A stretch of 64,000 nt of DNA, from positions 4,340,001 to 4,404,000 of the forward strand of contig CM022679.1 in assembly GCA_012295275.1 (NCBI GenBank), given 5' to 3'. The notes under the pieces are model-generated. The model had not been told where the DNA came from and did no database searches. It saw nothing but the letters and a program-made list of their open reading frames with translations. This DNA comes from Chrysomallon squamiferum. Taxonomy: Eukaryota; Animalia; Mollusca. Below, one piece after another: positions 27,971 through 30,900 of the stretch. A program made the translations under genes and the position numbers. Position 1 is the first letter of the stretch. Every line of letters begins with the position of its first letter.

Positions 27971-30900
27971 CTGCAATGTCAAACAACAGACAAACTGAGA
28001 ACATAAACAGAATGATATCTCAGATTATGTGCACGTCATTACTGTCAAGATTAAGGTTTAAAAAATAAAGAAGTGGTTTAAATAAAAATCATAATAAAAT
28101 GATGTTGAAATTCAGATCATTCAGTAATTTTAAAGGAAAAAAAAAAAGTACAAAGAAATTTAGAAAAAAAGAAGAAAATAACAACGAATCCAAATACAAA
28201 GTCTCTCTCTTTTTAAACATTTTCTAGAAAAAAAAAAGTAATACCAACATCAACAGTAACAGATTTAAGAGAAAACATCAACCAAAAATAATGATCTATT
28301 TCTGGAGTGTGTCAGAAAAAAATTATATATGTCGAGACCATTTGAAAGGAAAAAGAAATAAGATTTTCCAATAATGATTCAGTCATCTGGCTTTTATCAC
28401 ACCTTCTTGACATAATAAAAAGTTTTAAATAAATTGCTTTTAAACAATAAAGTTCGGCTACTGACTGCAGATTCGTTTAAAAAATTTAAGATTAATTACA
28501 ATTTTAACTGCTTGAAAGGAAAAAATAAAAAGTAACAATTAAAATAAAATACAGATGTGATGCGCACAGACAGTAGAGAGAGAGAGAGAGAGAGAGAGAG
28601 AGAGAGAGAGAGAGAGAGAGAGAGAGAGAGAGAGAGAGAGAGAGAGAGAGAGAGAGAGAGAGACTGAATGGATAGAAGACATAACGAGACCTGTTTGGCT
28701 GGAGCTGGCAGGTTTGCTCTGTGGCCGTAAGCTGCCAAATTGACCACCAGCACGTTGAGAAACACTGACAGAGTGATTAGAATCATGTTCAAACAGTAGT
28801 ACGTTCCTGAAATAATAATAACAACATAACAATAACAACAGCAACAACAACAACAACAATAAGAATAATGAGAATAATAAGAATAATAACGATGACTATC
28901 ATTATTTTAATGATGAGGATAATGATCATTATTTTAAATACCAATGTAAATTGTCTCAATTGTATTTATGAAATGGGGGCAGTGCTTTTCCTTTGATATC
29001 CAAAAAAAAAAAAAAAAAAAAAAAATAATAATAATAATAATAATAATAATAATAATAGCAAATAATAATAAATAATAACGCTCGCACGATTTATACTGAA
29101 AGATCTGTCAGAGGAAAAATATTAGACATTCACTTACTTACTCTTTGATTCGTTTATTTATTGAGTCACAAATTTATATTTTCGCTTTTCACGAAAAACT
29201 GACAATCTGATTCTTGTGACGGAAAATTCACCTGACAAAATGAATGCTTACCCAGCAGAGGCATTGTTGAAGTTCCTGGTGGCAGGTTTTTCTCTAAGAT
29301 CTTTAGTAAGATGAAAAAGGCAATGAACACTGTTAAACCTGAAATAGTTTACAAACTGCTTGATGAGTATGTGCGTATGCATTCTTTAAATGTGCTGTAA
29401 TCGAACAGAAAGACAAATAGAGATAAACAGATAAACTGACAAAAACATAGAAACAGGTATTTAGTTTTGCACTATTTATAAATTATATGTTTTTAGGTAT
29501 AATTATTTAACTGAATAAACTAATTACAGTATTAATTGTACTAATCAGTTAAATGTTGTTTTATGCAATTATGAATTTTAACGATTCTTGCAGTACAAAC
29601 TTGAAAAGGAAATCTCTAAAACGTTTGTTTTTGTTATTTTTTTTCCACAGAATTAAAACTAATTAAAATAAACTCGATTCGAAACGGACAAAAAAAAAAA
29701 AATTAAATCTCTTTCTTCTCATTCTTCTTTTTATCCACAAGAATAAAATTAAAACAAATAAAATAAAAATAAAATAAATTTATAAATAAATAAATAAATA
29801 AATAGCAGTTGGCAAGAATCCACATTGCCTTAAAAAAAAAAAAAAAAAAAAAAAGAAAAAAAAAAAAAAAAAAAATAATTTGAAAACTGTCGCGTCTAGC
29901 CCATCTCGAAACTAAACTAAACAGCAATATACCACCACAAATTTAACATTAAAAAACAAAAACATAAAAAAAACGCTGAAAAAAAAAACTGGCATCTCGG
30001 CGATTCTTACCAAGCTGCATTTTCGCCGGCGACTCCGGTGGGATCCAGAACAGAACGAGCGTGATTGACGTGAGCAAGACGCAGGGCAGAATGAGGATGT
30101 AGTTGTACAGAGTGGCTCTGCGCTGGAAGATGAGGTAATACCGCAGCTCTATGTACGTCTCCGGACAGCACGTGTACTTGATGACGTTCCGCATCGCCGG
30201 GACGTCGATGATCTTCCAGGAGTTGCTCTCCACGTACTCGGTCAGGTCGATGTAGTTCTTGTTCTCGTGGAACCGCAGGTCAAGCTGGCTGCCTCCGTAC
30301 GTCCACGAGCCAAACTTGAGCGTGCAGTTCTGGACGTCGAAGGGGAAGTTGGTGACGTCTATGGGACACGACACGCGGTAGATGGCTTGCGGCATCCACA
30401 GAATCTCTCCAGTGTGTTTGAGCACACACATGACTTTTCTGTGTTCGTCGAGTCGAAGATCTGCACTGAATTAAATATTACGGAGACTGTTTATTTTAGG
30501 TGTGTGGAAGATATGCATGTAGATTTGGAATTTGTATTAGTTCGTGAATTACAATTTAGTTGTGTGTAAAGAAACAGTATCATCATCATTATCATCATCA
30601 TCGTCATAAAGAAATAATATCATTATCATTACTGTCATCATAATGTCATCATTATTATTAATTCCTTCGTAAAGATTATTATTAATAATTTTATTGTACT
30701 GCTATTGCTAATATCAGTACTACTATTATCATCAGTAATACAACATTAAAGTAATAATAATTATAATAATAATAATAATAATACTGCAAAAAAACCTGCT
30801 ATTATTACCAGTATTATTATTATGATTATTATTAATAGTAGCAGTAGTAGTAATAGTGATAGTAGTAGTAGTAGTAGCTGCAGCAGCAGCAGCAGCAGTA

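What the first reader, a model, noticed from the sequence alone, without database searches (positions are those of the whole stretch)
29252..30040. Alpha-type nAChR with an anion-channel selectivity filter (PAK instead of GEK): predicted ACh-gated chloride channel
Seen: the M1-M2 linker reads FWIPPESPAK-MQLG, giving Pro at -2', Ala at -1' and Lys at 0' (30021-30029), whereas cationic nAChRs have G-E-K. The same protein keeps the ACh aromatic box and the vicinal cysteines. Established: loss of Glu -1' with Pro at -2' is the PAR-type signature of GABA-A, glycine and GluCl channels, and molluscan nAChRs of the Lymnaea LnAChR-B group carry this type of motif and conduct chloride. Inference: this gene encodes an inhibitory nicotinic receptor from the lophotrochozoan anionic clade that automated pipelines would probably label as a generic neuronal alpha-like subunit.
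Basis: partly seen in the sequence, partly recalled or inferred. Interest (0 to 1): 0.8.

Follow-up and report, generated by a model that had tools for sequence, protein, structure and literature searches.

The report
Snail inhibitory nicotinic receptor, lysine-lined pore
This is an intact snail gene of an already described family of acetylcholine receptors whose tested members pass chloride instead of sodium, so it is likely inhibitory too; its only unusual feature is two extra lysines predicted to line the pore, shared by a paralog group found here only in snails.

Summary
Observation confirmed; interest overrated. A 7-exon minus-strand gene (40568-27521) encodes an intact 495-aa alpha-type nicotinic subunit with Pro-Ala-Lys at -2'/-1'/0' (30029-30021), vicinal cysteines and all five aromatic-box residues. 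The motif is a family-wide trait, not a one-off: 101 of 112 homologs aligned carry it, including Lymnaea subunits B, K and I, and the family (AChRB/SmACC) is published with chloride selectivity measured in Octopus AChRB1. Trees built without the linker and M2 place the protein in this clade (100/100) and reject grouping with GEK subunits (p-AU 7e-6). Corrections: it is not the LnAChR-B ortholog but a gastropod paralog sister to LnAChR-K; and the proline replaces Gly, it is not inserted. Basic 16' occurs in 18 of 101 PAK homologs, 17 of them with Lys20', against 0 of the other 83. Chloride selectivity likely (0.88); working alone as a homomer is doubtful, as two of three octopus paralogs gave no homomeric current.

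The parts
40505..40568 (-). Exon 1 (coding part): start codon and signal peptide
   Evidence: ATG at 40568, GT donor at 40504; aligns with the N-terminus of Gigantopelta P0002; hydrophobic segment 1-21
31913..32118 (-). Exon 2: start of ligand-binding domain, loop D Trp87
   Evidence: profile E 1e-24
30946..31055 (-). Exon 3: loop A region, Tyr125
   Evidence: E 1e-13
30011..30465 (-). Exon 4: Cys-loop, loop B Trp181, loop C (Tyr224, Cys226-Cys227, Tyr231), M1, M1-M2 linker, start of M2
30021..30029 (-). Pro-Ala-Lys at M2 -2', -1', 0' (residues 273-275): anion-type filter motif
   Evidence: no difference listed here in the contig of run X1 that covers 29989-30485
29252..29338 (-). Exon 5: most of M2 and the M2-M3 loop
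   Evidence: E 1e-10
29301..29303 (-). Lys291 = M2 16' (Leu in LnAChR-B, -K, -I and alpha7)
29289..29291 (-). Lys295 = M2 20' (Glu in alpha7 and LnAChR-B, Ala in -K, Asp in -I)
28691..28806 (-). Exon 6: M3 and start of the intracellular loop
   Evidence: E 5e-14
27521..27970 (-). Exon 7: intracellular loop, basic MA helix, M4, stop codon

Best explanation
The gene encodes an intact alpha-type subunit of the lophotrochozoan PAK (AChRB/SmACC) nicotinic receptor family and likely contributes to an acetylcholine-gated chloride channel that would inhibit the cell. Shown: gene model, binding-site residues, PAK filter, clade position, Lys16'/Lys20'. Inferred mechanism: acetylcholine binds in the aromatic box at a subunit interface whose principal face this subunit can supply; the pore opens; with the Glu -1' ring replaced by Ala behind a Pro, the intracellular mouth no longer repels anions, and basic residues at 0', 16', 20' and in the MA helix add positive potential, so Cl- carries the current. 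It more likely works mixed with B-, K- or I-type paralogs than as a homopentamer (homomer about 0.35).
For: PAK is shared with LnAChR-B, -K, -I. PAK/PSK rows form one clade apart from GEK rows with linker and M2 removed: 39 vs 8 rows, 100/100; 49 vs 18 rows, SH-aLRT 100; grouping with GEK rows is rejected, p-AU 6.9e-6. Octopus AChRB1 reversal potential shifts with low Cl- and not with Na-free solution, and all genes of that group have PAK (10.1101/2025.04.02.646353, section 8). LnAChR-B is described as the anion-conducting type (PMC4193815 passages); Lymnaea B, I, K are listed as inhibitory subunits (PMC4990912 passages); SmACC-1 gave an agonist-dependent YFP quench and no calcium influx (PMC4055736 passages). 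M2 net charge (-5' to 24') is +1 against -2 in 3 of 3 GEK rows; MA helix is +4 (+2 to +5 in 7 PAK rows) against 0, -2, -6. Seven of seven listed coding differences in run X1 are synonymous, as expected for a conserved gene.
Against: No member of this paralog group is reported as tested in the papers read. It is not in the B ortholog group (p-AU 0.0011, group named after seeing the tree). Octopus AChRB2 and AChRB3 gave no current as homomers. In alpha7, E-1'A alone stayed cationic in experiments and conversion needed an inserted proline plus V13'T (PMC8011927 passages), whereas this protein has no insertion and Ile at 13'; LnAChR-B, however, has the same linker length and Val at 13'. The acidic residue at -4' is kept and Glu19' offsets one lysine. 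Splicing is predicted from DNA and homology, not seen in RNA.
Confidence: 0.85

Rival explanations
1. An obligate accessory subunit: it cannot form a channel alone, and enters heteromers with B/K/I-type subunits, where one or two copies of Lys16'/Lys20' tune conductance, gating or drug block. (Compatible with chloride selectivity; a rival on assembly and role.)
For: Two of three octopus family members were silent as homomers; by the order of accession numbers the silent AChRB2 is probably the K-lineage gene, the lineage of this protein (weak inference). Five lysines at 16' would sit in what is the L9'-L16' hydrophobic girdle of alpha7. Principal-face residues are less conserved in the basic-16' group: vicinal Cys 15 of 18 vs 82 of 83, loop A Tyr 10 of 18 vs 73 of 83, second loop C Tyr 7 of 18 vs 59 of 83 (rows are related and some are fragments, so these are not independent tests). 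Paralogs share a contig length in Gigantopelta, Lottia, Aplysia and Nucella, suggesting linkage.
Against: This protein itself keeps all five aromatic residues and both cysteines, including the complementary-face Trp, as homomer-forming subunits do. Silence in oocytes can be an expression problem: SmACC-1 at first gave no functional channels, which the authors linked to low protein levels (PMC4055736 passages).
Confidence: 0.55
2. A chloride channel gated by a ligand other than acetylcholine (choline, betaine, an environmental cue), as a diverged sensory paralog.
For: The group sits on a long stem branch (0.27 changes per column) and several orthologs have lost loop C cysteines or tyrosines. 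Molluscan nAChR-like genes have been re-used for other ligands (passages).
Against: The binding box of this protein is canonical; it has seven exons, unlike the intron-poor expanded molluscan copies (PMC6896357 passages).
Confidence: 0.1
3. A cation-selective or non-selective receptor despite the motif.
For: No proline insertion and a hydrophobic 13' residue; alpha7 E-1'A was still cationic in experiments.
Against: Same filter as LnAChR-B and the octopus family; extra lysines at 16' and 20' would disfavour cations; grouping with GEK subunits rejected.
Confidence: 0.05

Closest known systems
Gigantopelta aegis XP_041363747.1 / XP_041364738.1 ('neuronal acetylcholine receptor subunit alpha-10-like / alpha-7-like')
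   Same: 79% identity over 497 columns, 495 aa, PAK, Lys16', Lys20'; sister row in both trees. Likely the ortholog.
   Different: Second loop C aromatic is Phe and loop A has His in P0002, against Tyr/Tyr here. Automatic name only; no function known.
Lymnaea stagnalis LnAChR-K (ABA60389.1)
   Same: PAK linker, vicinal cysteines; its group is the sister of this protein's group (97/87); 49% identity; listed as an inhibitory subunit.
   Different: Leu16'/Ala20' instead of Lys/Lys. Lymnaea has a separate, unnamed member of this protein's own group (CAL1539684.1, Arg16'/Lys20', vicinal cysteines lost).
Lymnaea LnAChR-B (ABA60381.1) and Octopus AChRB1
   Same: Same PAK filter and family; described or measured as ACh-gated anion channels; 41% identity to LnAChR-B.
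   Different: Different paralog group; Leu16'/Glu20' in LnAChR-B; these form homomers, which is untested here. The snail Gigantopelta has its own B ortholog (P0048).
Schistosoma mansoni SmACC-1/-2
   Same: Pro-Ala motif, nested in nAChRs with the Lymnaea anionic subunits (PMC4055736 passages). Flatworm PAK proteins (Paragonimus, Macrostomum) fall in the same clade here.
   Different: SmACC sequences were not retrieved or aligned here; flatworm branch is distant from this group.
GABA-A, glycine, GluCl and nematode ACC channels (PAR motif)
   Same: Pro-Ala-basic at -2' to 0', correlated with anion selectivity (PMC9962794 passages).
   Different: Separate branch of the superfamily; the nematode ACCs are unrelated to AChRB. 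Their linker is one residue longer than the cationic one (recalled, not tested), whereas here it has cationic length.

Membership tests
Cys-loop receptor, nAChR alpha-type subunit | Signal peptide, ligand-binding domain with 13-residue Cys-loop, four TM helices | tested here: met
   PF02931 and PF02932 hits; C160/C174; hydropathy peaks at 1-21, 245-270, 272-297, 306-335, 446-482
Cys-loop receptor, nAChR alpha-type subunit | Vicinal cysteines in loop C and aromatic box (TyrA, TrpB, TyrC1, TyrC2, TrpD) | tested here: met
   C226-C227; Y125, W181, Y224, Y231, W87
Lophotrochozoan anionic nAChRs (AChRB / SmACC / LnAChR-B, I, K) | Pro-Ala(-Lys) in place of Gly-Glu(-Lys) at the start of M2 | tested here: met
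   defined so
Lophotrochozoan anionic nAChRs (AChRB / SmACC / LnAChR-B, I, K) | Groups with LnAChR-B/I/K inside the nAChRs, apart from GEK subunits | tested here: met
   100/100 with motif columns removed; AU rejects grouping with GEK rows. LnAChR-A, -F and SmACC-1 were not in the tree; outgroup rows were picked by their GEK motif and only one is named
Lophotrochozoan anionic nAChRs (AChRB / SmACC / LnAChR-B, I, K) | ACh-gated current with reversal potential set by chloride | not testable with these tools
   needs electrophysiology
LnAChR-B / AChRB1 orthologs | One clade with LnAChR-B | tested here: not met
   separate clades; p-AU 0.0011
LnAChR-K orthologs | One clade with LnAChR-K to the exclusion of other gastropod paralogs | tested here: not met
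   K group (5 rows, 100/97) and this group (8 rows, 100/100) are sisters, each with Lottia, Gigantopelta, Aplysia and Lymnaea members
Cationic nAChRs (alpha7-, alpha3-like) | Glu at -1' | tested here: not met
   Ala274

The most novel reading that the evidence does not exclude
Gastropods duplicated the K-type anionic nAChR gene early, and one copy gained a conserved basic ring inside the hydrophobic gate (Lys/Arg16') plus Lys20'. This untested paralog group forms or modifies ACh-gated chloride channels with distinct pore behaviour (stronger anion selectivity, altered conductance or rectification, a weakened hydrophobic gate, resistance to cationic pore blockers), and may underlie one of the kinetically distinct chloride responses to ACh in snail neurons (those responses are recalled, not checked).
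Probability: 0.35. Interest if true: 0.55.

Novelty: new member of a known kind. Interest (0 to 1): 0.3.

Why it matters
The headline claim adds one more member to a family already shown to be chloride-selective in a snail, an octopus and a flatworm, so it matters mainly for correct annotation: the nearest database entries carry names of excitatory vertebrate subunits. The useful lead is the basic-16'/20' paralog group: a natural experiment on how charges at the outer half of M2 affect gating and selectivity in a nicotinic scaffold, and a candidate partner subunit for molluscan anionic receptors that are silent when expressed alone.

Tried and rejected
No whole genome is held, so paralogs and linkage in this organism could not be checked beyond the window. 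No RNA holder listed; three RNA runs laid on 29200-30500 covered no exon, which says nothing on expression or splicing. Run X1 holds about half of the words and may be the source or a close relative, so it is not independent support. A second nAChR gene or alternative M2 exon in the window: profile search of 2073 six-frame pieces found only the six expected exons (E 1e-10 or better), next hit E 0.12; tblastn with 6 relatives agreed. Structure prediction of the Gigantopelta ortholog (alignment A1) was submitted but never finished, so no fold search was run and the pore-facing position of 16' rests on gap-free alignment and literature. A pentamer could not be modelled (complex tool takes at most four copies; not used). 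van Nierop 2005 is not held; it is known here only through citing papers. LnAChR-A and -F and SmACC-1 were not among the named hits. Earlier scan findings: none by words or by sequence. No tRNA genes. Rejected: splice artefact behind PAK (motif is inside exon 4), pseudogene (no stops, 7 of 7 listed coding differences synonymous), LnAChR-B orthology, a GlyR-like proline insertion.

Full report
Observation. The region belongs to one minus-strand gene. Exons at 40568-40505, 32118-31913, 31055-30946, 30465-30011, 29338-29252, 28806-28691 and 27970-27521 all have GT-AG ends and give 1488 coding bases, 495 residues, no internal stop. Introns are 8386, 857, 480, 672, 445 and 720 bp. It lies wholly inside exon 4, so splicing cannot have created it, and no alternative exon with a Glu exists in the window. 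The Cys-loop, vicinal cysteines and the five aromatic-box residues are present. A contig of run X1 covers 29989-30485 with no difference listed at the motif; seven coding differences were listed in exons 4 and 5 and all seven are synonymous. The contig count shows one further difference that the table does not place.

What it is. Exon 4 found 114 proteins at E 1e-30 or better among 212 candidates; the best single-domain hits are gastropod, led by Gigantopelta aegis at 87%, 79% over the whole protein. The window is therefore a gastropod close to that genus. Of 112 homologs aligned (114 hits plus two cluster members, minus four over 700 aa), 101 have PAK, 5 PTK, 4 PSK, 1 GEK and 1 a gap. Named members include Lymnaea subunits B, K and I. 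A wider search of 50% representatives brought mostly GEK-type domains (95 GEK against 14 PAK among the domains of 141 new proteins), which supplied the outgroup. I picked 66 and then 46 of the roughly 300 proteins fetched by then, favouring full-length ones, and removed the linker and M2 columns. Both trees separate PAK from GEK rows with full support, and holding this protein with the 8 GEK rows is rejected (p-AU 6.9e-6). Caveats: outgroup rows were chosen by motif, only one is named (a fish alpha7-like subunit), and LnAChR-A, -F and SmACC-1 were not available.

Position in the family. Molluscan PAK subunits fall into I-like, B-like and K-like groups, each with an octopus member. Within the K-like group the gastropod rows split in two (97/87): LnAChR-K orthologs (100/97) and a second group (100/100) holding this protein with Lottia, Haliotis, Gigantopelta, Nucella, Bradybaena, Aplysia and an unnamed Lymnaea protein. 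Grouping with the five B orthologs is rejected (p-AU 0.0011; group named after seeing the tree).

Pore anatomy. The linker aligns without gaps to human alpha3, alpha4 and alpha6, and is 10 residues long in 112 of 113 rows, the fish alpha7-like row included: the proline replaces Gly -2' rather than being inserted, unlike the engineered alpha7 conversion (PMC8011927 passages). M2 has Gln2', Thr6', Ile9', Ile13', Lys16', Glu19', Lys20'. Lys or Arg at 16' occurs in 18 of 101 PAK rows; 17 of these have Lys20', against 0 of the other 83. The 16 named rows among the 18 are all gastropods; a profile search with 15 of these proteins added one Elysia fragment and no named non-gastropod member among the 120 listed of 166 hits. 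Basic 16' also appears in a few unnamed, distant PAK/PAR proteins (P0290, P0305, P0138, P0140, P0151), so it has arisen more than once. In alpha7, L9'-L16' is the hydrophobic girdle and the 20' ring affects conductance, so both lysines are predicted to face or flank the pore; the structure job did not finish. M2 and MA-helix net charges are more positive than in the three GEK rows compared.

How it likely works. Shown: the sequence features above. Inferred from family members: ACh binding opens a pore that passes Cl-, because the Glu -1' ring is gone and a Pro-Ala-Lys mouth plus basic rings favour anions; the effect is hyperpolarising or shunting where Cl- is low inside. Support from print: Octopus AChRB1 responds to ACh (EC50 1.9 uM), its reversal potential follows Cl-, and all genes of the group carry PAK (10.1101/2025.04.02.646353, passages and section 8); LnAChR-B is the anion-conducting type (PMC4193815 passages) and is listed with SmACC-1 among subunits forming functional channels (PMC11601209 passage); B, I and K are called inhibitory subunits (PMC4990912 passages); Pro-Ala is given as the defining feature of these channels (PMC4055736 passages). 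A phylum-wide preprint counts 457 AChRB sequences (PMC13174522 passages).

Against. No read paper reports a test of this paralog group. AChRB2 and AChRB3 gave no homomeric current; accession order suggests, weakly, that AChRB1 is the B-type, AChRB3 the I-type and AChRB2 the K-type gene, which would make the nearest tested octopus relative a silent one. Binding-site residues are less conserved in the basic-16' group than in other PAK rows, though all six features together do not differ clearly (6 of 18 vs 49 of 83, p 0.067) and rows are not independent. This protein keeps them all. Experiments on alpha7 show that losing Glu -1' alone need not invert selectivity. There is no RNA evidence for the splice model.

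Novelty. The anionic nicotinic family and its PAK motif are in print, so the finding as written is a new member of a known kind. I found no mention of the Lys16'/Lys20' gastropod group in ten literature searches, but none could target it by residue, the 2005 Lymnaea paper was not held, the 2006 one was not looked up, and the octopus preprint's supplementary tree was not seen; absence from print is therefore not established. Other papers were seen only as passages and add nothing decisive.

Verdict. Observation confirmed, interpretation supported with refinements. Family membership about 0.97, chloride-selective contribution about 0.85-0.88, homomeric function about 0.35. Interest 0.3; 0.55 if the basic pore rings prove to give distinct channel behaviour.

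Noticed in passing
window 34242-34501 and 37571-37830: Two direct copies of a 260-bp non-simple sequence, 97% identical, 3329 bp apart in intron 1; a short mobile element or a recent local duplication.
   Followed up: no
P0023 (Lymnaea CAL1539684.1), P0032 (Physella), P0009 (unnamed): Members of the same basic-16' group that have lost the vicinal loop C cysteines, i.e. non-alpha versions of this subunit.
   Followed up: partly
P0002 and P0115 (Gigantopelta): Two near-identical 495-aa copies of the ortholog under separate accessions, differing at M2 6' (Ile vs Thr): a recent duplication or haplotypes.
   Followed up: no
P0290, P0305, P0138, P0140, P0151: Distant, unnamed PAK/PAR subunits with Lys or Arg at 16'; P0290, the one placed in a tree, falls outside the gastropod group, so the change looks convergent.
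   Followed up: partly
window 1-64000: AT-rich (21-39% GC per 2 kb) with many microsatellites; the other ORFs of 130 aa or more are mostly simple-repeat translations and none was identified as a gene, though they were not searched.
   Followed up: no
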